Shown: piece after piece, positions 6,419-42,954 of the stretch
Numbering within the stretch: position 1 is the first letter of the stretch
Layout of the letters: each line of letters begins with the position of its first letter
IMG/VR virus record: IMGVR_UViG_3300042402_003952
Strand: one strand, 5' to 3'
Length of the DNA: 64,000 nucleotides
DNA from: a virus
Taxonomy: Duplodnaviria > Caudoviricetes
The notes under the pieces: model-generated
Told to the model about the DNA's origin: nothing
The model's database searches: none
What the model saw: only the letters and a program-made list of their open reading frames with translations
Translations under genes and position numbers: made by a program

Positions 6419-6572
6419 ACTGATTCTAGCAACTACAATTACATCTATTCCATATCAAGAAAAAGTTAATCGTAGTTGTTCTTATATTGTAGGAATCCCT
6501 TATGCTTCTGATAACTTTACTGATGAAGAATGGAAAAGATTTGAGTTATGTAGGAAGTTGATTAAGATTTAG
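6411..6572 (+). CDS. hypothetical protein (53 aa, MIELILATT...GIPYASDNFTDEEW), not in ORF track
   Basis: Hand-translated; converges on the HNH gene with 11-bp overlap. Confidence 0.65.
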   Translation: MIELILATTITSIPYQEKVNRSCSYIVGIPYASDNFTDEEWKRFELCRKLIKI

Positions 6573-7092
6573 GTGAAGTATTCATTACTTTACGAAGTCC
6601 ATATTGATTGATATATTGTTCCAGTGCGCTTTCAATCATATTATTCATAAATTCATAAGAGTTAGGAACTGGTAATCCTTTTCTTATGCTTGCAGAATGA
6701 ACTTCTTTTACTTTTTCTAATATAAACTTATCTATTTCAAAACCATTTACAACTGCTTTATATTCTACATTTGCTTTTTTAGTTACCCATTCTAGATTTT
6801 CTAATCTATTATCTGCACTGTTTTTATTTCGATGATTTACTTCCATTGTAATATCTTCTGTTGGAATGAAAGCAAGAGCAACTAATCTATGAACTAGAAA
6901 GTTTCTTTTTTTACCGTATTTGTCAGATAGTAATACTGCTCTATATCCACAATTTCTTTTCTTCCAACCAGGAGAAAGTATCTTTGGTTTCTTATACTTA
7001 AAAGACCATATATTTCCTTCTGTGTCTACACCATATTCAGGGTAATCTTTTAAGTATTTTGTATCTTCAAGTTTCAGTAATCTGGTTTCCAT
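6562..7092 (-). CDS. free-standing HNH homing endonuclease (NUMOD4-like N-terminus, 176 aa)
   Basis: YGVDTEGNIWS (NUMOD4-like), VHRLVALAF, EVNHRNKNSADNRLENLEWVT (HNH motif). Confidence 0.9.
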   Translation of the reverse strand: METRLLKLEDTKYLKDYPEYGVDTEGNIWSFKYKKPKILSPGWKKRNCGYRAVLLSDKYGKKRNFLVHRLVALAFIPTEDITMEVNHRNKNSADNRLENLEWVTKKANVEYKAVVNGFEIDKFILEKVKEVHSASIRKGLPVPNSYEFMNNMIESALEQYINQYGLRKVMNTSPKS

Positions 7093-7209
7093 TTGATTGA
7101 GTTTACCACTAAAAGGTATATAGTGGTAAATGCTATTTAAGAAAAGGTTAATATTGAGAATTACTATGATTAGAGATTGATAAATTGATATAATGGTAGT
7201 GTTATATTG

Positions 7210-7330
7210 TTAATACCTTAAAGAATGTGAGTTCTTATGATTAATACCTTAAAGAATGTAGTTAATACCTTAAGAAACCTTAAAGAATGTAGTTAATACC
7301 TTAAGAAACCTTAAAGAATGTGAGTTCTTG
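7210..7330. repeat. phased direct repeats ACCTTAAAGAATGT x4, 31-bp period
   Basis: Copies start at 7215, 7246, 7277, 7308; half copies ACCTTAAG at 7267 and 7298. Confidence 0.9.
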
Positions 7331-7347
7331 TCGCGGTCTTGGCCTGC

Positions 7348-7376
7348 ATTATAACACATCAGCGCTGTTTTGTCAA
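7348..7376 (-). promoter_or_regulatory. consensus sigma70 promoter (TTGACA-17-TATAAT), minus strand
   Basis: Plus strand ATTATA 7348-7353 and TGTCAA 7371-7376, 17-bp spacer; points across the 31-bp repeats toward the HNH gene. Confidence 0.85.
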
Positions 7377-7918
7377 TACCCCCAGGACACTCCAAAAATC
7401 GGCACACCACTATAAAATTATAAACACTCCCAGACACGTCTATATGCCCCTGCAAGGCACTTATAAACTCATTTAGGGGTCAGAGTACCGAAGTGCTGGT
7501 TTTTGTGATTAAATCAGCATAGGATAGAACTACAAAAACCAGCAAGAACTTGTATAAATAAACATAACAATTCAATTCATAGTGCGAATTTGAACTTTCC
7601 TACGGGGTCAAAAGTCAAATTCTACAGAAGCGAAAAGTTAATAAAACATTTGATAATTTATAGAATCAAAGTTCTCATAGGGTCTTTATAAAAACCCTCT
7701 CTCCAAAGTCAATGAAATAAAACCATTGATGGAGAAAACAAATACTGAAAGAGATTATCAAAACTGAATACTCACCGAAACCCAATAAAAGCACATAATT
7801 CCTGCTTTAGATTCTTATGCGAATTTCTAAAGATGTCAGGAAGGTTTTATACTATCAAAAATTATTTAATTATCAAGGTTTTATCAGAACTCTTTTATTC
7901 TATCACATAATCTTCTAG

Positions 7919-7947
7919 TTGACAAGTACTCATAATGTCGCTAGAGT
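7919..7947 (+). promoter_or_regulatory. sigma70 promoter (TTGACA-17-TAGAGT)
   Basis: -35 at 7919-7924, -10 at 7942-7947. Confidence 0.7.
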
Positions 7948-8044
7948 ATGTTTGTTGCTGTTAAAGAGAAATAATAACATCAAGAACTTAAAGACCCGTC
8001 CGAAGGACAACACGACCGAAGGGAGTGTTTCTATAAGGCACTGG

Positions 8045-8073
8045 TTGACAATTATAATAAGACCTGATAGAAT
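8045..8073 (+). promoter_or_regulatory. sigma70 promoter (TTGACA-17-TAGAAT) just upstream of the 72-bp array
   Basis: -35 at 8045-8050, -10 at 8068-8073. Confidence 0.85.
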
Positions 8074-8090
8074 ATAACAATCAGAACAAA

Positions 8091-8345
8091 CAAAAGTCAT
8101 TCGTGATTAGATAAGATTCGTATCATTATAAAAGACACAAGCACTAATGATAAGAATGAATCACAAAGTCATTCGTGATTAGATAAGATTCGTATAGAAA
8201 AATCATAATACTTAAGACTGGCAATAAAGAACTCATAAGTTCATTCGTGATTAGATAAGATTCGTATAGAAAATTGATAATACAACACAACTGTGAGATT
8301 ATAATCACAAAGTCATTCGTGATTAGATAAGATTCGTATAGAGAT
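8091..8345 (+). repeat. array of four invariant 27-bp cores (TCATTCGTGATTAGATAAGATTCGTAT) at exact 72-bp period with variable interspersed sequence
   Basis: Cores start at 8097, 8169, 8241, 8313; the three 45-bp intervening segments differ. Confidence 0.95.
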
Positions 8346-8423
8346 TCGATCTTATCAGAATCTCAAAGAAATCATAAGAAGAAAATATTCGTTTATATCT
8401 CAAGTTCGTTGTGGGGCAAATAC

Positions 8424-8452
8424 TTGACGGGCACTGAAAGGTCTGGTAGAAT
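8424..8452 (+). promoter_or_regulatory. sigma70 promoter (TTGACG-17-TAGAAT)
   Basis: -35 at 8424-8429, extended -10 TGGTAGAAT; shares ACGGGCACTG and CTGGTAGA with cassettes B/C. Confidence 0.75.
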
Positions 8453-8492
8453 TAACCAGTAGAGTTTATTCGTTCTTTCGGTTCTTTAACTT

Positions 8493-8660
8493 ATGGCAAC
8501 TTCTTACCTTAAAGCACAAAGGAATAAGTATCGTATCACTCTGGAATTAAACGTGAATGAAGATTTTAATCCTCATCAGATTAACTGGAAGAAACTATTC
8601 GGGTTAGACAGTAAAGAATCAGTGAAGAGTTATGTAGAAGATCTCTCCGTGCCCTGGTAA
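8493..8660 (+). CDS. small conserved-type cyanomyovirus protein (55 aa, MATSYLKAQRNKYRITLEL...DFNPHQINW), not in ORF track
   Basis: Hand-translated; directly downstream of the 8424 promoter. Confidence 0.75.
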   Translation: MATSYLKAQRNKYRITLELNVNEDFNPHQINWKKLFGLDSKESVKSYVEDLSVPW

Positions 8661-9131
8661 TTAAGAATACAATCCAACATTCCTCTGTTGTATTATACTT
8701 TCGTGGAGTAAGAAACATCGCCTGATAGATGTTTCGTTTATTATTATTACTTTGTCTGATTGTTTTTATCTTTAATGGCAACTTAATTCTTTATACTTAT
8801 TATTATTCGTCGTTAATTGGCGGCAGTTAGTATAAAGAATAGTCAGTTCTTATTAAATAAGTAGAGTTTTTTCGTGCTTAAGTAATAAGAACTTCGTTGT
8901 TTTATTCTAATAACACAGTGATTTGGTGGCAGTTAGTATAAACAACACGAATAACTAATACTTATTCGTTGTCAGTTGTTTATTCGTTATAGCAGTTATT
9001 TTATTTTATTTGTTATTGTTTATATCGGGCGTTGCCCCCGTATATAAAAACGCCCCACTACCCTAACCTACACTGTATGTCTTTTTCGACCTATCTATCA
9101 CTCTCATAAAAAAAAAATTCCATAAAAAAAA

Positions 9132-9269
9132 ATGTCTCCAAAAAGAAAAGTAAATTGCCACGGATGGGGAATCTTCGGAGGTAAGCACAAGAAAAAGAAA
9201 AGTTGCGCAACAGGTATCTTCAGAACTCCTGCTCAAAAAAGAGCATCCTCAAAAAGAAAGAAGAGATGA
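9132..9269 (+). CDS. very basic small protein (45 aa, MSPKRKVNCHGWG...SKRKKR), not in ORF track
   Basis: Hand-translated; 16 K/R, no D/E; ATGA overlap with next ORF. Confidence 0.6.
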   Translation: MSPKRKVNCHGWGIFGGKHKKKKSCATGIFRTPAQKRASSKRKKR

Positions 9270-9409
9270 AAAAATCAGCACCATATTGGAATTTTTGGAG
9301 AGTGATACTTGCAGGATGGATGATCAGATACCCAAAGCAAATGAGTAGAATTTCATTAACATCTCTGGGCATTTTGATTAGTCTGATATATAATGCAATG
9401 GTAAAATAA
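9266..9409 (+). CDS. small putative membrane protein (47 aa, PYWNFWRVILAGWMIRYP)
   Basis: In-frame ATG at 9266 within the 9203-9409 ORF; hydrophobic C-terminus. Confidence 0.7.
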   Translation: MKKSAPYWNFWRVILAGWMIRYPKQMSRISLTSLGILISLIYNAMVK

Positions 9410-9443
9410 CTTTATCATAAAAAAAATTTCGTAAAAATTTTTT

Positions 9444-9641
9444 ATGCAAACGGAAAAAATATATCACATCTACGCAAAAGATAAGTGTTTATTTCATTCT
9501 ATTAAAGAGGATGAATTCGAAACAACTTGGAATACCATTAACAATATGGTAGGAATTATGAAAACTGACTATATTATAGAAGACTTATCCTATGAGGAAT
9601 TGATTTTTCAGAAAGAAATGAGTTTAAACTCTTCGCATTGA
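9444..9641 (+). CDS. hypothetical protein (65 aa)
   Basis: ORF track. Confidence 0.75.
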   Translation: MQTEKIYHIYAKDKCLFHSIKEDEFETTWNTINNMVGIMKTDYIIEDLSYEELIFQKEMSLNSSH

Positions 9642-9667
9642 CAACTGCATATATAGACTGTTAAAAT
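9638..9667 (+). promoter_or_regulatory. sigma70 promoter (TTGACA-18-TAAAAT, extended -10)
   Basis: -35 at 9638-9643, TG at 9659-9660, -10 at 9662-9667, upstream of the glycosyltransferase-like gene. Confidence 0.65.
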
Positions 9668-9690
9668 TGATCTGAAGGTTTTATTTTTTT

Positions 9691-10458
9691 ATGGCAAAAG
9701 GATTTACTGTAAAAGCAACAGCACCAACATCCAAAAAAGAAGACTGGGATATTGATGCGATTAAAGAAAGGATGCGAGGAAAGTCAATTGTATTTTGTCT
9801 TCCTGGTCGTGGGTGTTCCTTTATTTTTCTGAAGAACTTTGTGCAACTGTGCTTTGATATGGTACAGAATGGAATGAGTATTCAAATCTCTCAAGATTAT
9901 TCATCAATGGTTAATTTTGCACGTTGCAAATGTTTGGGTGCAAATGTACTTCGTGGACCAAAGCAAATTCCTTGGGATGGAAAACTGCAATATGATTATC
10001 AACTTTGGATTGACTCGGATATTGTCTTTGACACAAACAAATTCTGGCAACTTTGTGATCTTTCTCTGAGTGAAGATGGTACTGAGCGGGAAATCACTGC
10101 TGGTTGGTATGCTACAGAGGATGGGCACACAACTTCTGTCGCACACTGGTTGGAGGAAGATGATTTCCGCAAGAATGGTGGAGTGATGAATCATGAAACC
10201 GTTGAGTCTATTCAAAAACGTCGGAAACCTTTCACTGTTGATTACACTGGTTTTGGTTGGGTACTCATCAAGAATGGTGTTTTTGAAAACCTCGAATATC
10301 CTTGGTTTGCACCTAAAATGCAAGTCTTTGAGTCTGGTCAAGTTCAAGATATGTGCGGTGAAGATGTTTCATTCTGTCTTGATGCAAAAGAGGCAGGATT
10401 TGAAATCTGGTGCGATCCTCGTATCAGAGTGGGGCATGAGAAAACTCGTATTATCTGA
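9691..10458 (+). CDS. GT-A fold glycosyltransferase-like protein (255 aa)
   Basis: LWIDSDIVF (DxD motif), YTGFGWVLIK, GEDVSFC, CDPRIRVGH. Confidence 0.75.
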   Translation: MAKGFTVKATAPTSKKEDWDIDAIKERMRGKSIVFCLPGRGCSFIFLKNFVQLCFDMVQNGMSIQISQDYSSMVNFARCKCLGANVLRGPKQIPWDGKLQYDYQLWIDSDIVFDTNKFWQLCDLSLSEDGTEREITAGWYATEDGHTTSVAHWLEEDDFRKNGGVMNHETVESIQKRRKPFTVDYTGFGWVLIKNGVFENLEYPWFAPKMQVFESGQVQDMCGEDVSFCLDAKEAGFEIWCDPRIRVGHEKTRII

Positions 10459-40923: not shown

Positions 40924-42954
40924 TTGAGAGAAATATCACTTTTAAATATGGGAAAAAAAGTACTATCTCCATCAGAATTAATAGAACTTCGTGCTCGGCA
41001 AAAAGAAGAGGAAGAAATTTTTGCGGCAAAATTAAAAGAAGAAAATAAATTACAAGAAAAACTTAAAAGAATTTTATCTCCCAGCGATCTTCTAGATCCA
41101 AAACAAGAGTCTGAACCAGTAATAGAAGAAGTAATAGAGTTCATAGAAAAAATAAAAGATCCAATTGAGGTTCTTCATGAAAGAATTGAAGAGGTTTCTT
41201 CGACCATTAAAGAACCAAAGTACTATGATAAAGAAATCTCTCAAGTAAATACAGTAATTGAAGAGATTAAAAAAAGTATTCCAAAGGTCCCAGAAGTAAA
41301 ATATTACGACAGAGAGATTCAATCGATTATTGAAAAATTAGATTCTCTTGATATTCGTTATTACGAATCTGATATACAATTTATTAATGATAGATTAAAC
41401 AAACTTCGTGATTTTGATGTTAGAAACAATAAAGAGATAAGACTTGCTATTAGTAGAATAGTAGAGGATGTTGAAAAGTTTTATGAGTTGGAGATACTTG
41501 ATCCAAAAGAAACTCACAAGTATATTGATCTAATAAAAGAATCTTTTTATAAAAAAGTAGAAGATTTAAAATTACAACTTTCTGAAATTCCAGAAGTTAA
41601 GTATTATGATGATGAATTATTAGAACTCAAAGAAAAGATTGAATCCGTCAGAGTTTCTATTCCAAAAATTCCAGAAATTCCAGAAGTTAAGTATTATGAT
41701 GATGAATTATTAGAACTCAAAGAAAAGATTGAATCCGTCAGAGTTTCTATTCCAAAAATTCCAGAAATTCCAGAAGTTAAGTATTATGATGATGAATTAT
41801 TAGAACTCAAAGAAAAGATTGAATCCGTCAGAGTTTCTATTCCAAAAATTCCAGAAATTCCAGAAGTTAAGTATTATGATGATGAACTAAAGTGTATTAT
41901 TAACACTATTGAAGAAGTTCGTTCTAGTATTCCAGAACTTCCTGAAGTTCGTTATTATGAGAATGAAATTTTTAAATTAGAAGAATCTATTAAAGATGTT
42001 GAGACAAGACTTTCGAAGATTCACTATTATGATGAACAAATTAATGAGTTAAATGAGTCTATAAAAAATGTAGAGAATAAGATTCCGATAGTTCCTAAAT
42101 TTCCAAAAGTTAAGTACTACGATAATGAGATTTCTGAACTTAATAACATTCTTGAGAAAATTAAAAAAGACATTTATCAACTTCAAAAATCTGTTGATAA
42201 TATTGAGATTCCGGAACAAATAGATTGGTCTATTGAAATTGAAAATATTTATGAACAAATAGAAAAACTTAAAGAAGTTCCAGTTATTACAGAAAGCACC
42301 GATCCTCTTATTCCATTAGATCAAAATTTTGTAACTCTTGATGATCTTCAAAGTCACTATAAACTTTTTATCAATCGCATCCAACAACAACTTTCTACTT
42401 TAGGTGGTGGTGGAGAAACGCGATTAGAATTTCTTGATGATATTGATAGAAATACAGCCAAAACAAATAACTATTATCTAAAATATGATGCATCTTTAGA
42501 TAAATGGGTTGGTGACGCTGGAAGTGGAGGTGGTGGAGGAGGTTCTCAGACTTTAGATCAAACACTATTACTTGGCAACACATCATCTCTAGGAATGAAT
42601 GTTGGAATAGTTACTGCAACTTCTTTTGTTTTGAATGGCGGAACTATATCCTCAGGAGTTGTTACAACCACTTCAATATCAGAAACTACAATAGTATCTT
42701 TGAACTCTTCAATTTACAGATCTGCCACATATCAAATACAAATCACTGACGGAACTAATTATAATATGACATCAATCAATGTAATTCATGATGGAACTAC
42801 AACTTATATGACAGAATATGGAACCATCAACCAACCGATTGGAATTGCTACATTCTCAACTGATATTAATTCTGGATCACTAAGACTTCTTGCATATCCT
42901 AGTTCTACTAATAATACAACTTTTAAAGTTATTTTGACCTCAATATCCATATGA
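40924..42954 (+). CDS. repeat-containing coiled-coil protein (PEVKYYD repeats) with C-terminal beta domain
   Basis: 676-aa ORF (TTG start; ATG at 40948 possible); multiple PEVKYYDxE heptad units; QQQLSTLGGGGE..LEFLDD motif. Confidence 0.8.
   Translation: MREISLLNMGKKVLSPSELIELRARQKEEEEIFAAKLKEENKLQEKLKRILSPSDLLDPKQESEPVIEEVIEFIEKIKDPIEVLHERIEEVSSTIKEPKYYDKEISQVNTVIEEIKKSIPKVPEVKYYDREIQSIIEKLDSLDIRYYESDIQFINDRLNKLRDFDVRNNKEIRLAISRIVEDVEKFYELEILDPKETHKYIDLIKESFYKKVEDLKLQLSEIPEVKYYDDELLELKEKIESVRVSIPKIPEIPEVKYYDDELLELKEKIESVRVSIPKIPEIPEVKYYDDELLELKEKIESVRVSIPKIPEIPEVKYYDDELKCIINTIEEVRSSIPELPEVRYYENEIFKLEESIKDVETRLSKIHYYDEQINELNESIKNVENKIPIVPKFPKVKYYDNEISELNNILEKIKKDIYQLQKSVDNIEIPEQIDWSIEIENIYEQIEKLKEVPVITESTDPLIPLDQNFVTLDDLQSHYKLFINRIQQQLSTLGGGGETRLEFLDDIDRNTAKTNNYYLKYDASLDKWVGDAGSGGGGGGSQTLDQTLLLGNTSSLGMNVGIVTATSFVLNGGTISSGVVTTTSISETTIVSLNSSIYRSATYQIQITDGTNYNMTSINVIHDGTTTYMTEYGTINQPIGIATFSTDINSGSLRLLAYPSSTNNTTFKVILTSISI
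41584..41886 (+). repeat. perfect 90-bp tandem repeat (~3.4 copies) within CDS
   Basis: GAAATTCCAGAAGTTAAGTATTATGATGATGAA recurs at 41584, 41674, 41764, 41854. Confidence 0.95.

What the first reader, a model, noticed from the sequence alone, without database searches (positions are those of the whole stretch)
8045..8375. Promoter-driven array of invariant 27-bp cores at exact 72-bp spacing: CRISPR-like orphan array or repeat ncRNA
A near-perfect sigma70 promoter (TTGACA-17-TAGAAT, predicted TSS ~8080) sits just before four identical cores TCATTCGTGATTAGATAAGATTCGTAT at 8097, 8169, 8241 and 8313, separated by different 45-bp segments of constant length. Copies 2 and 4 extend to a hairpin-capable ATCAC...GTGAT, and the last copy can pair with CGATCTTATC downstream, closing the array. 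There is no ORF and no cas gene in the window. Candidate roles: (a) processed guide/decoy RNAs, as in phage CRISPR mini-arrays or RNA anti-CRISPRs; (b) mimic of a type III toxin-antitoxin RNA antitoxin; (c) phased iterons (72 bp is ~7 turns). Caveat: the spacers share fragments (ATAATAC, ACACAA, ATCACAAAG) and the ends lack typical GTT/AAC CRISPR termini, so a diverged tandem repeat with a selected core is equally plausible.
Basis: partly seen in the sequence, partly recalled or inferred. Interest (0 to 1): 0.8.

Follow-up and report, generated by a model that had tools for sequence, protein, structure and literature searches.

The report
Conserved repeat array in freshwater cyanophages
The four evenly spaced identical 27-base cores are real, but they are not a CRISPR array: they are the strongest sites of a conserved, undescribed non-coding field of TTCGT motifs found only in uncultured lake cyanophages, most likely a platform where a sequence-specific protein assembles.

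Summary
In detail: four exact 27-nt cores sit at 8097, 8169, 8241 and 8313, behind an 11/12 sigma70-type promoter.

The window is a T4-like cyanomyophage recovered from lake metagenomes. The same array (2-5 units, period 69-73 nt, about 31 nt conserved) occurs in about 48 IMG/VR contigs. It always lies upstream of one 55-aa ORF and about 3.5 kb before baseplate gene gp25.

- **Not CRISPR.** The "spacers" are orthologous between contigs and change only by point substitutions. Within the closest clade, cores 2-4 show 0/81 variable columns against 44/180 in spacers.
- **Not a type III antitoxin.** No Cas or ToxN-like gene lies nearby, and the units show no conserved RNA fold.
- **Part of a larger field.** The pentamer TTCGT, often paired 16-17 nt apart, reaches 11.4/kb on the plus strand over about 1.5 kb, against 0.47/kb outside. 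The field flanks the ORF's promoter, its 5'UTR and a conserved inverted repeat.
- **Restricted distribution.** Marine relatives keep the ORF but lack the field. No copy turned up in prokaryote genomes, Rfam or the papers searched.

Best reading (about 0.42): a DNA-level, iteron-like array of protein-binding sites in a transcribed control or origin region. Main rival (about 0.33): a multi-site, unstructured "sponge" RNA. Which applies is unresolved.

The parts
7553..7560 (+). T4-type late-promoter-like TATAAATA, followed by a conserved non-coding element. In relatives that lack the P0/P1 cassette, this is the nearest promoter-like site upstream of the array.
   Evidence: Read from the sequence. 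The same 'cttgtataaataaa' context lies about 200 nt upstream of the arrays in L011, L026, L037 and L049. Assignment as a late promoter is inference from the T4 consensus.
7875..8096 (+). Inserted early-promoter cassette carrying P0 (7919-7947, TTGACA-17-TAGAGT) and P1 (8045-8073, TTGACA-17-TAGAAT, TG-extended). The predicted P1 start at about 8080 lies 17-20 nt before core 1.
   Evidence: Promoter scan. The cassette is absent from the closest relatives (alignment A1) but sits in the same place before divergent arrays in L024, L032, L050 and L061. It is flanked by the direct repeat AAGGTTTTAT at 7841 and 7875.
8097..8123 (+). Core 1. It is exact here but degenerate (3-4 changes) in the closest relatives.
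8169..8195 (+). Core 2
   Evidence: Cores 2-4 show 0/81 variable columns in the closest clade.
8241..8267 (+). Core 3. This whole unit is deleted in L020.
8313..8339 (+). Core 4
8326..8356 (+). Closing inverted repeat. The 3' half of core 4 (8326-8336) pairs with 8347-8356.
   Evidence: Variants CGATCTTATC and CGAACTTATC both keep a 10-bp stem with one bulge. Last-unit segments fold better than internal ones (mean z -1.33 against -0.44).
8385..8412 (+). Degenerate fifth unit. The TTCGT pair at 8388 and 8405 lies in 72-nt register with the cores and abuts the -35 of P2.
   Evidence: These columns are invariant in alignment A1.
8424..8452 (+). P2, the promoter of the 55-aa ORF (TTGACG-17-TAGAAT). 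It is conserved in nearly all family loci.
8469..8473 (+). TTCGT in the 5'UTR of the ORF, at about +12 from the predicted P2 start. It sits in an invariant context in all clades.
8493..8660 (+). 55-aa ORF (phrog_12516; no Pfam family, no fold match). It always lies 150-250 nt downstream of the array.
8700..8987 (+). Downstream part of the TTCGT field, with seven further plus-strand copies. It includes the inverted repeat ACGAATAA (8947-8954) / TTATTCGT (8962-8969) and a TTCGT pair 18 nt apart (8965, 8983).
   Evidence: Conserved across clades in alignment A3.
8990..9058 (+). Conserved T/AT-rich tract followed by a GC-rich inverted repeat, then a late-promoter-like TATATAAAAA and a leader shared with marine relatives.

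Best explanation
The array is the high-affinity end of a roughly 1-kb non-coding field of same-strand TTCGT motifs. I read it as working mainly at the DNA level, as an iteron-like set of binding sites for one sequence-specific protein.

Each 31-bp core is an asymmetric site with two direct TTCGT half-sites 17 bp apart. Four to five such sites are held 69-73 bp apart, so bound proteins can build one nucleoprotein complex. Weaker sites bracket the promoter and 5'UTR of the adjacent 55-aa gene. An inverted copy of the motif lies next to an AT-rich tract further downstream. Transcription from early (P1) or late promoters runs through the field.

I think the complex controls this early/late junction, either as a transcription-activated replication origin or as a promoter-control hub. 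It is comparable in grammar, not in sequence, to iteron origins and to T4 oriE.

Shown here: the anatomy, the conservation, the uniqueness of the locus, the synteny and the absence from hosts.
For: - The family is real and under selection. About 48 IMG/VR loci carry it. Cores 2-4 show 0/81 variable columns against 44/180 in spacers, Fisher p = 1.5e-8.
- Invariance is long and contiguous. TTCGT-TTAG is fixed, by the search criterion, and the flanking 7 and 12 nt are conserved in 119 distinct units. That fits a 2.5-3-turn DNA footprint better than a single-stranded RNA motif.
- There is one locus per genome in contigs of 71-156 kb.
- TTCGT reaches 11.4/kb on the + strand in the field, against 0.47/kb outside and 0.97/kb on the other strand, across 48 loci. 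It is the top-enriched 5-mer, at 33-fold.
- Sites lie at about -70, -52 and +12 of P2. An inverted repeat of the same motif sits beside a conserved AT-rich tract.
- The units have no conserved RNA structure. RNAalifold gives 0.0 kcal/mol and the plus-strand fold has z = -0.04.
- Strong promoters end 25-43 nt before the first core in at least six array types. This is compatible with transcriptional activation of an origin, as reviewed for T4 in PMC3016281.
- Unit-precise copy-number change occurs: L020 lacks one unit, and L056 has a recent duplication.
Against: - Unit periods of 69-73 bp are not in a common helical phase, so strict face-of-the-helix cooperativity is unlikely.
- The units show no AA periodicity near 10.5 bp.
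- No initiator or DNA-binding gene was identified. The 55-aa ORF has no family or fold match, and marine phages that lack the field also carry it.
- No DnaA boxes occur in the region.
- T4-type phages are not known to need iteron-binding initiators, and the role of the T4 oriE repeats is itself undefined (PMC3016281).
- Nearly all isolated motif copies point the same way, and the field starts just after a predicted transcription start. An RNA-level reader would explain both equally well or better.
Confidence: 0.42

Rival explanations
1. RNA-level multi-site element. The plus-strand transcript running from P1 or upstream promoters to about 9040 is an unstructured RNA carrying about 19 UUCGU sites, with four or five high-affinity 31-nt cores spaced by a roughly 70-nt ruler. 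It would bind many copies of a host or phage RNA-binding protein, possibly a dimer bridging sites 16-17 nt apart. It would act as a sponge or scaffold, or as a cis-regulatory leader and trailer of the 55-aa gene. This works like CsrB/RsmZ without being related to them.
For: - Motif copies are 12:1 on the transcribed strand in 48 loci.
- The field begins 17-20 nt after the predicted P1 start and ends before a GC-rich hairpin.
- A mobile early-promoter cassette sits directly before the array in several divergent lineages.
- The RNA has no excess structure, so motifs would be accessible.
- The spacing constraint of 69-73 nt does not follow helical phase.
- Contigs of relatives from two metatranscriptomic libraries cover 8243-8342 and 8255-8404. 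This is a weak point, because DNA carry-over is not excluded.
Against: - Twelve or more contiguous invariant nucleotides within a 31-nt conserved block is long for recognition of unstructured single-stranded RNA.
- No cognate RNA-binding protein is known or identified.
- Many lineages have no promoter close to the array, and no intrinsic terminator follows it.
- TTCGT is not avoided in the phage's mRNAs, with 35 observed against 30-38 expected.
- Sites around P2 and the inverted repeat look like DNA operator grammar.
Confidence: 0.33
2. CRISPR-like mini-array or RNA anti-CRISPR. The cores are CRISPR repeats and the 45-nt segments are spacers or decoys, used with a Cas system supplied in trans.
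For: Repeat length (27-31 nt) and constant spacer length (41-45 nt) fall in the CRISPR range. A promoter acts as a leader in this genome.
Against: - Spacers are positionally orthologous in all close relatives and differ only by substitutions. No spacer turnover is seen.
- Spacers resemble each other, at 25/45 for spacers 2 and 3.
- No match of the region exists in 50,697 phage records.
- No Cas-like neighbour was found.
- The repeat has no conserved hairpin.
- The first unit, not the last, is the degenerate one.
- The core is absent from the 401 cyanobacterial genomes searched.
Confidence: 0.02
3. Type III toxin-antitoxin-like module or pseudo-antitoxin. The repeat RNA would neutralise an endoribonuclease toxin, either the downstream ORF or a host abortive-infection toxin.
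For: The layout of promoter, tandem repeats, hairpin and downstream gene resembles toxIN.
Against: - The downstream gene encodes 55 aa with no ToxN, CptN, TenpN or PADLOC hit.
- That ORF exists without any array in marine relatives.
- Units are 69-73 nt with only 27-31 nt conserved, and they have no fold.
- No similar array was found in 185,579 prokaryote species genomes.
Confidence: 0.03
4. Decaying tandem duplication without function. The cores would look conserved only because of recent duplication or gene conversion.
For: Spacers are distantly related to each other. Units are gained and lost, and L056 shows the same 1-nt insertion in three cores, which indicates some concerted evolution.
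Against: The core is maintained in lineages whose spacers have diverged to about 34% identity, which is chance level. Unit length stays within 69-73 nt. The array position, the TTCGT field and the promoter context are conserved in about 48 loci.
Confidence: 0.05

Closest known systems
Iteron-type replication origins (plasmid R6K gamma, P1, phage lambda ori) and the T4 oriE region
   Same: Both have a unique non-coding locus and several same-orientation direct repeats. Both have an inverted copy of the motif, a nearby AT-rich tract, a sigma70-type early promoter reading through, and tiny ORFs inside the region. T4 RepEA and RepEB are 50 and 45 aa, against 55 aa here. The position is also similar, a few kb upstream of baseplate genes.
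   Different: Spacing here is 69-73 bp, not about 22 bp. T4 oriE repeats are 12-mers every 24 nt inside the gene 5 coding sequence. The 55-aa ORF shows no similarity to RepEA or RepEB. There is no recognisable initiator, no DnaA boxes and no helical phasing.
CsrB/RsmZ-type protein-sponge RNAs
   Same: Both carry about 19 copies of a short motif on one transcribed strand within under 1 kb. Many copies are paired at about 17 nt, near the distance a dimeric binder can bridge (that figure is from my own knowledge of CsrA). Here the element also lies next to a small gene.
   Different: The motif is UUCGU inside a 31-nt conserved block, not GGA in hairpin loops. There is no conserved structure, no known binding protein and no clear terminator. 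No Rfam family matched the region.
CRISPR arrays, including phage-borne mini-arrays
   Same: Identical 27-nt repeats are separated by different segments of constant length behind a promoter.
   Different: Spacers are inherited vertically and mutate in place. There is no acquisition, no cas gene, no protospacer match and no repeat hairpin.
Type III toxin-antitoxin antitoxin arrays (toxI, cptI, tenpI)
   Same: A promoter-proximal tandem RNA-like repeat is followed by a hairpin and a gene.
   Different: No endoribonuclease toxin is present. Units are about twice as long, with only a core conserved. The neighbouring gene occurs without the array in other phages.
Plasmid F sopC-type centromere arrays
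   Same: Both are tandem units of tens of bp, each carrying one protein-binding core, and form a unique cis site. This comparison comes from my own knowledge.
   Different: sopC units are near-identical over their whole length and each carries an inverted repeat. No ParA/ParB-like genes lie near this array, and T4-like lytic phages are not known to need partition.

Membership tests
CRISPR array | Near-identical direct repeats of 23-55 nt at regular spacing | tested here: met
   Four exact 27-nt cores occur at a 72-nt period.
CRISPR array | Spacers are unrelated captured sequences that differ between strains (turnover) | tested here: not met
   Spacers are orthologous in 10 close relatives and differ only by substitutions. 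Spacers 2 and 3 share 25/45 positions.
CRISPR array | Protospacer matches in foreign or host DNA | tested here: not met
   The 601-nt region has no match in 50,697 phage records at E <= 0.01. Spacers were not searched against host genomes.
CRISPR array | Associated cas genes, or a matching host CRISPR repeat | tested here: not met
   Neighbouring ORFs have no Pfam or PADLOC Cas hit. The 24-nt core occurs at control rate in 401 cyanobacterial genomes. The rest of the window was not scanned with Cas models.
Type III toxin-antitoxin (ToxIN-like) | Adjacent ToxN/CptN/TenpN-type endoribonuclease gene | tested here: not met
   The downstream ORF is 55 aa with no Pfam or PADLOC family and no fold match.
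Type III toxin-antitoxin (ToxIN-like) | Whole units repeated (about 34-45 nt) and folding into a conserved pseudoknot or hairpin | tested here: not met
   Units are 69-73 nt with a 27-31-nt core only. RNAalifold on 119 units gives no structure.
Iteron replication origin | Several same-orientation direct repeats at a unique locus | tested here: met
   Each array has 2-5 units plus a degenerate one. There is one locus per 71-156-kb contig.
Iteron replication origin | Adjacent AT-rich unwinding element | tested here: inconclusive
   A conserved T/AT-rich tract at 8990-9025 lies about 650 nt from the array, beside the inverted repeat.
Iteron replication origin | Cognate initiator protein encoded nearby and binding the repeats | not testable with these tools
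   The only adjacent gene is the 55-aa ORF of unknown fold, and binding cannot be computed here.
Iteron replication origin | Repeats in helical phase (multiples of about 10.5-11 bp) | tested here: not met
   Periods of 69, 70, 71, 72 and 73 occur, sometimes within one array. There is no 10.5-bp AA periodicity.
CsrB/RsmZ-type sponge RNA | Many copies of one short motif on the transcribed strand | tested here: met
   The window has 18-19 TTCGT on the + strand against 1 on the other strand. Enrichment is 24-fold across 48 loci.
CsrB/RsmZ-type sponge RNA | Discrete RNA with its own promoter and terminator | tested here: inconclusive
   A strong promoter lies before the first core in this window and at least five other array types, but not in many others. 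No intrinsic terminator follows. RNA-library contigs cover part of the array.
CsrB/RsmZ-type sponge RNA | Motifs displayed in conserved hairpin loops; known cognate protein | tested here: not met
   No conserved structure was found. No cognate protein is known.
Any Rfam family | Match to a curated covariance model | tested here: not met
   cmscan of 6500-10000 at E <= 10 gave only chance-level hits, none on the array.

The most novel reading that the evidence does not exclude
The field is transcribed into an unstructured, roughly 1-kb early RNA. Its 19 or so UUCGU sites include four or five 31-nt high-affinity cores set about 70 nt apart. These sites soak up or scaffold a host or phage RNA-binding protein during infection of lake picocyanobacteria. 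That would be a phage-encoded protein-sponge RNA in a host group without the Csr system, with the adjacent 55-aa protein as a candidate partner.
Probability: 0.3. Interest if true: 0.8.

Novelty: new variant of a known kind. Interest (0 to 1): 0.52.

Why it matters
Non-coding control elements of cyanophages are almost unknown beyond a few Rfam motifs, and no replication origin or protein-titrating RNA has been defined for T4-like cyanophages. This family offers a sharply defined cis element: a 31-nt core, a 5-nt motif field, a fixed genomic position, and natural variants with 2-5 units. Binding assays, origin mapping and RNA-end mapping can test it directly. It also separates lake cyanomyophages from their marine relatives, which keep the neighbouring gene but not the element.

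Tried and rejected
- **Named phage records.** Megablast and blastn of the region against 50,697 phage records gave no match. Arrays from two other clades also found nothing meaningful there.
- **Closest named phages.** Bellamy, S-SM2 and SynMITS9220M01, and the nearest held virus record, lack the paired pattern and have no tandem repeat at the syntenic site.
- **Rfam.** No match.
- **tRNA-like units.** None found.
- **Host copy or antisense target.** A scan of 185,579 species genomes returned only unrelated repeats, mostly Chryseobacterium coding repeats, and none had the second half of the core. In 401 cyanobacterial genomes the 24-nt core with up to 3 mismatches gave 1 hit, against 3 for the reversed control.
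- **Unit-level RNA structure and covariation.** None found; the top mutual-information pairs are neighbouring positions.
- **Pairing of the core with the downstream block.** Not better than shuffles, p = 0.39.
- **Each unit as its own promoter.** A -10-like hexamer at the right distance occurs in 17/119 units, the same as at shifted offsets.
- **Avoidance of TTCGT elsewhere in the phage.** Not seen.
- **Curved-DNA periodicity.** Not seen.
- **DnaA boxes.** None in the region.
- **The 55-aa ORF.** No Pfam or PADLOC family, no Foldseek, VIA or AFDB fold match, and only unnamed Atlas clusters. No similarity to T4 RepEA or RepEB.
- **Sequencing runs.** The first search listed no RNA holder. The second found two metatranscriptomic runs with small shares. 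Laid as contigs, they cover parts of the array and neighbours, but they cannot show strand, ends or level, and DNA carry-over is possible.
- **Long-range register.** The downstream TTCGT pair lies near an integer number of periods from the first core in about 10 of 15 array types. The types are not independent and several do not fit, so I draw no conclusion.
- **Papers.** Searches for cyanophage repeat, non-coding RNA, origin and UUCGU binders found nothing describing this element.
- **Steps not run.** I did not run the complex-prediction job, because no protein-protein claim is made. The T4 oriE primary paper (PMC94188) is not held.

Full report
**What is there.** The core TCATTCGTGATTAGATAAGATTCGTAT occurs exactly four times, at 8097, 8169, 8241 and 8313 on the plus strand. 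It occurs nowhere else in the window with up to three mismatches, and no match appeared in shuffles. TRF reports a 72-nt period. A TG-extended TTGACA-17-TAGAAT promoter lies at 8045-8073. The window is a T4-like cyanomyophage. Downstream lie gp25-, gp6- and gp7-like baseplate genes, and the neighbouring 255-aa ORF is 86-91% identical to proteins of Synechococcus phages Bellamy, SynMITS9220M01 and S-SM2. Near-identical DNA occurs in lake and freshwater metagenomes from 16 studies.

**A family, not a singleton.** An exact-core scan of IMG/VR found 18 contigs, and a degenerate two-core pattern raised this to about 48 true members once chance hits were removed. Arrays have 2-5 units with periods of 69, 70, 71, 72 or 73 nt, which excludes coding repeats. 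Across 119 distinct units the consensus is AAAnTCA-TTCGTGATTAGA-(6 nt)-TCGTAT. The array always occupies the same place. Small early genes come first, then the array, then one or two sigma70-type promoters, then a 55-aa ORF. About 800 nt of mostly non-coding DNA follows, then two conserved genes, then gp25. In contigs of 71-156 kb the 12-nt core centre occurs only at this locus.

The closest named (marine) phages keep the 55-aa ORF but have neither the array nor any tandem repeat there. Nothing comparable was found in 50,697 phage records, in Rfam, in 185,579 prokaryote species genomes or in 401 cyanobacterial genomes. The papers searched did not describe it either.

**Why it is not CRISPR or a type III antitoxin.** The segments between cores are positionally orthologous between contigs and differ only by substitutions. 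In the 11 closest arrays, cores 2-4 have 0/81 variable columns against 44/180 in spacers (p = 1.5e-8). Within the window, spacers 2 and 3 still share 25/45 positions. The array is therefore an old tandem duplication whose spacers drifted while the core and the unit length were held.

Copy number changes by whole units. L020 lacks one unit, and L056 has a fresh duplication and a shared 1-nt insertion in three cores. The degenerate unit is the first, not the last. No Cas- or ToxN-like gene is nearby. The units have no consensus RNA fold, and the plus-strand RNA folds no better than shuffles (z = -0.04).

**The array is part of a larger motif field.** TTCGT occurs 18 times on the plus strand between 8100 and 8983, of 53 such copies in the whole 64 kb, and once on the other strand. 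It is the most enriched 5-mer in this region, at 33-fold. Across 48 loci the density is 11.4/kb on the plus strand in the field, 0.97/kb on the minus strand, and 0.47/kb outside. The array-less marine relatives have 1-2 copies.

Copies are often paired 16-18 nt apart. Each core holds such a pair. A degenerate fifth unit (8388, 8405) lies in 72-nt register, immediately upstream of the -35 of the ORF promoter P2. One copy lies at about +12 in the invariant 5'UTR. Seven more lie downstream of the ORF, including a conserved inverted repeat (8947-8954 and 8962-8969) next to a conserved T/AT-rich tract and a GC-rich inverted repeat. TTCGT is not avoided elsewhere in the phage.

**Promoters.** Two upstream architectures exist. 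In this window, L024, L032, L050 and L061, a conserved cassette with two early promoters ends 25-26 nt before the first core. L040 and L043 have other strong promoters 25-43 nt upstream. The closest relatives of the window lack the cassette, and only a late-promoter-like TATAAATA with a conserved element lies about 200-540 nt upstream (present here at 7553). In this genome the cassette looks like an insertion flanked by AAGGTTTTAT. Individual units do not carry promoters above background.

Contigs of relatives from two metatranscriptomic libraries cover 8243-8342 and 8255-8404. This is only a hint that the region is transcribed.

**Weighing DNA against RNA.**

For a DNA-level reader:
- The conserved block is long and contiguous.
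- The direct half-sites suit an asymmetric, iteron-like site.
- Sites bracket a promoter.
- An inverted copy of the motif lies by an AT-rich tract.
- The locus is unique in the genome.
- The grammar parallels iteron origins and T4 oriE, with an early promoter, evenly spaced repeats, tiny ORFs and baseplate genes nearby (PMC3016281).

Against a DNA-level reader:
- Periods of 69-73 bp are not in helical phase, and there is no A-tract periodicity.
- There are no DnaA boxes.
- No binding protein was identified.
- T4's own oriE repeats are 24-nt-spaced coding repeats of undefined role.
- The 55-aa ORF is unrelated to RepEA or RepEB and has no recognisable fold.

For an RNA-level reader:
- The strand bias is 12:1.
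- The field starts just after the predicted P1 start.
- Promoter cassettes recur in front of the array.
- The RNA is unstructured, so motifs would be accessible.
- The spacing behaves like a ruler rather than following helical phase.

I put the DNA-level binding-site array at about 0.42 and the multi-site RNA at about 0.33. CRISPR-like, antitoxin-like and non-functional readings together come to about 0.1, and the remainder is unassigned.

**Verdict.** The element is a conserved, apparently undescribed cis-acting repeat field of uncultured freshwater cyanomyophages. Its mechanism can now be tested with simple binding, origin-mapping and RNA-end experiments.

Noticed in passing
window 7875-8096 (direct repeat AAGGTTTTAT at 7841 and 7875): The two-promoter cassette (P0 at 7919-7947, P1 at 8045-8073, with two small CCGAAGG hairpin-like words between them) is absent from the closest relatives. 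It is present at the same spot in divergent array lineages (L024, L032, L050, L061). It behaves like a mobile early-promoter cassette, reminiscent of the promoter-early stem-loop modules described for T4-type phages (that comparison is from memory).
   Followed up: partly
window 7246-7326 and 7348-7376 (minus strand): A separate 31-nt tandem repeat (2.6 copies, 98% identical) lies beside a perfect 12/12 TTGACA-17-TATAAT promoter with a TG extension on the minus strand. Both sit in the same ORF-poor region.
   Followed up: no
window 7553-7640; L011, L026, L037, L049, L056 upstream of their arrays: A late-promoter-like TATAAATA is followed by a conserved non-coding element (GGCGAACAGGGTTTAAC ... 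CCCGATGTGCC in relatives). This may be a separate conserved RNA or leader.
   Followed up: no
window 6562-7092 (minus strand): An HNH_3 homing-endonuclease gene is the only minus-strand gene in this part of the window. It is not at this position in the related contigs, so it is probably a recent mobile insertion.
   Followed up: partly
window 9266-9409: A small ORF (47 aa, PYWNFW..., hydrophobic) is conserved at the protein level across the family. It lies inside what looks at first like non-coding DNA.
   Followed up: partly
whole window outside 7100-9130: Words containing GGCC and AGCT are strongly under-represented on the sense strand. GGGCC occurs 0 times against 8.9 expected, GGCCT 0 against 15.7, and TAGCT 4 against 43. 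This suggests avoidance of HaeIII- and AluI-type restriction sites.
   Followed up: no
window 8100 to 8965; family loci: The downstream TTCGT pair lies at nearly an integer number of array periods from the first core in about 10 of 15 array types (for example 12.01, 12.00, 12.04, 13.02 and 16.06). Several types do not fit, and the lineages are not independent.
   Followed up: partly
L028, L033, L047, L053, L059 (for example L059:5700-6570 in array orientation): One clade has a much longer field (up to 1.8 kb) with extra half-units, an internal consensus promoter between units, and a second enriched word, TATAAGA, repeated more than 15 times.
   Followed up: no
window 41584-41886: A perfect 90-nt tandem repeat (3.4 copies, 100% identical) lies inside the 676-aa ORF at 40924-42954. 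It is presumably a coding repeat of a structural protein.
   Followed up: no
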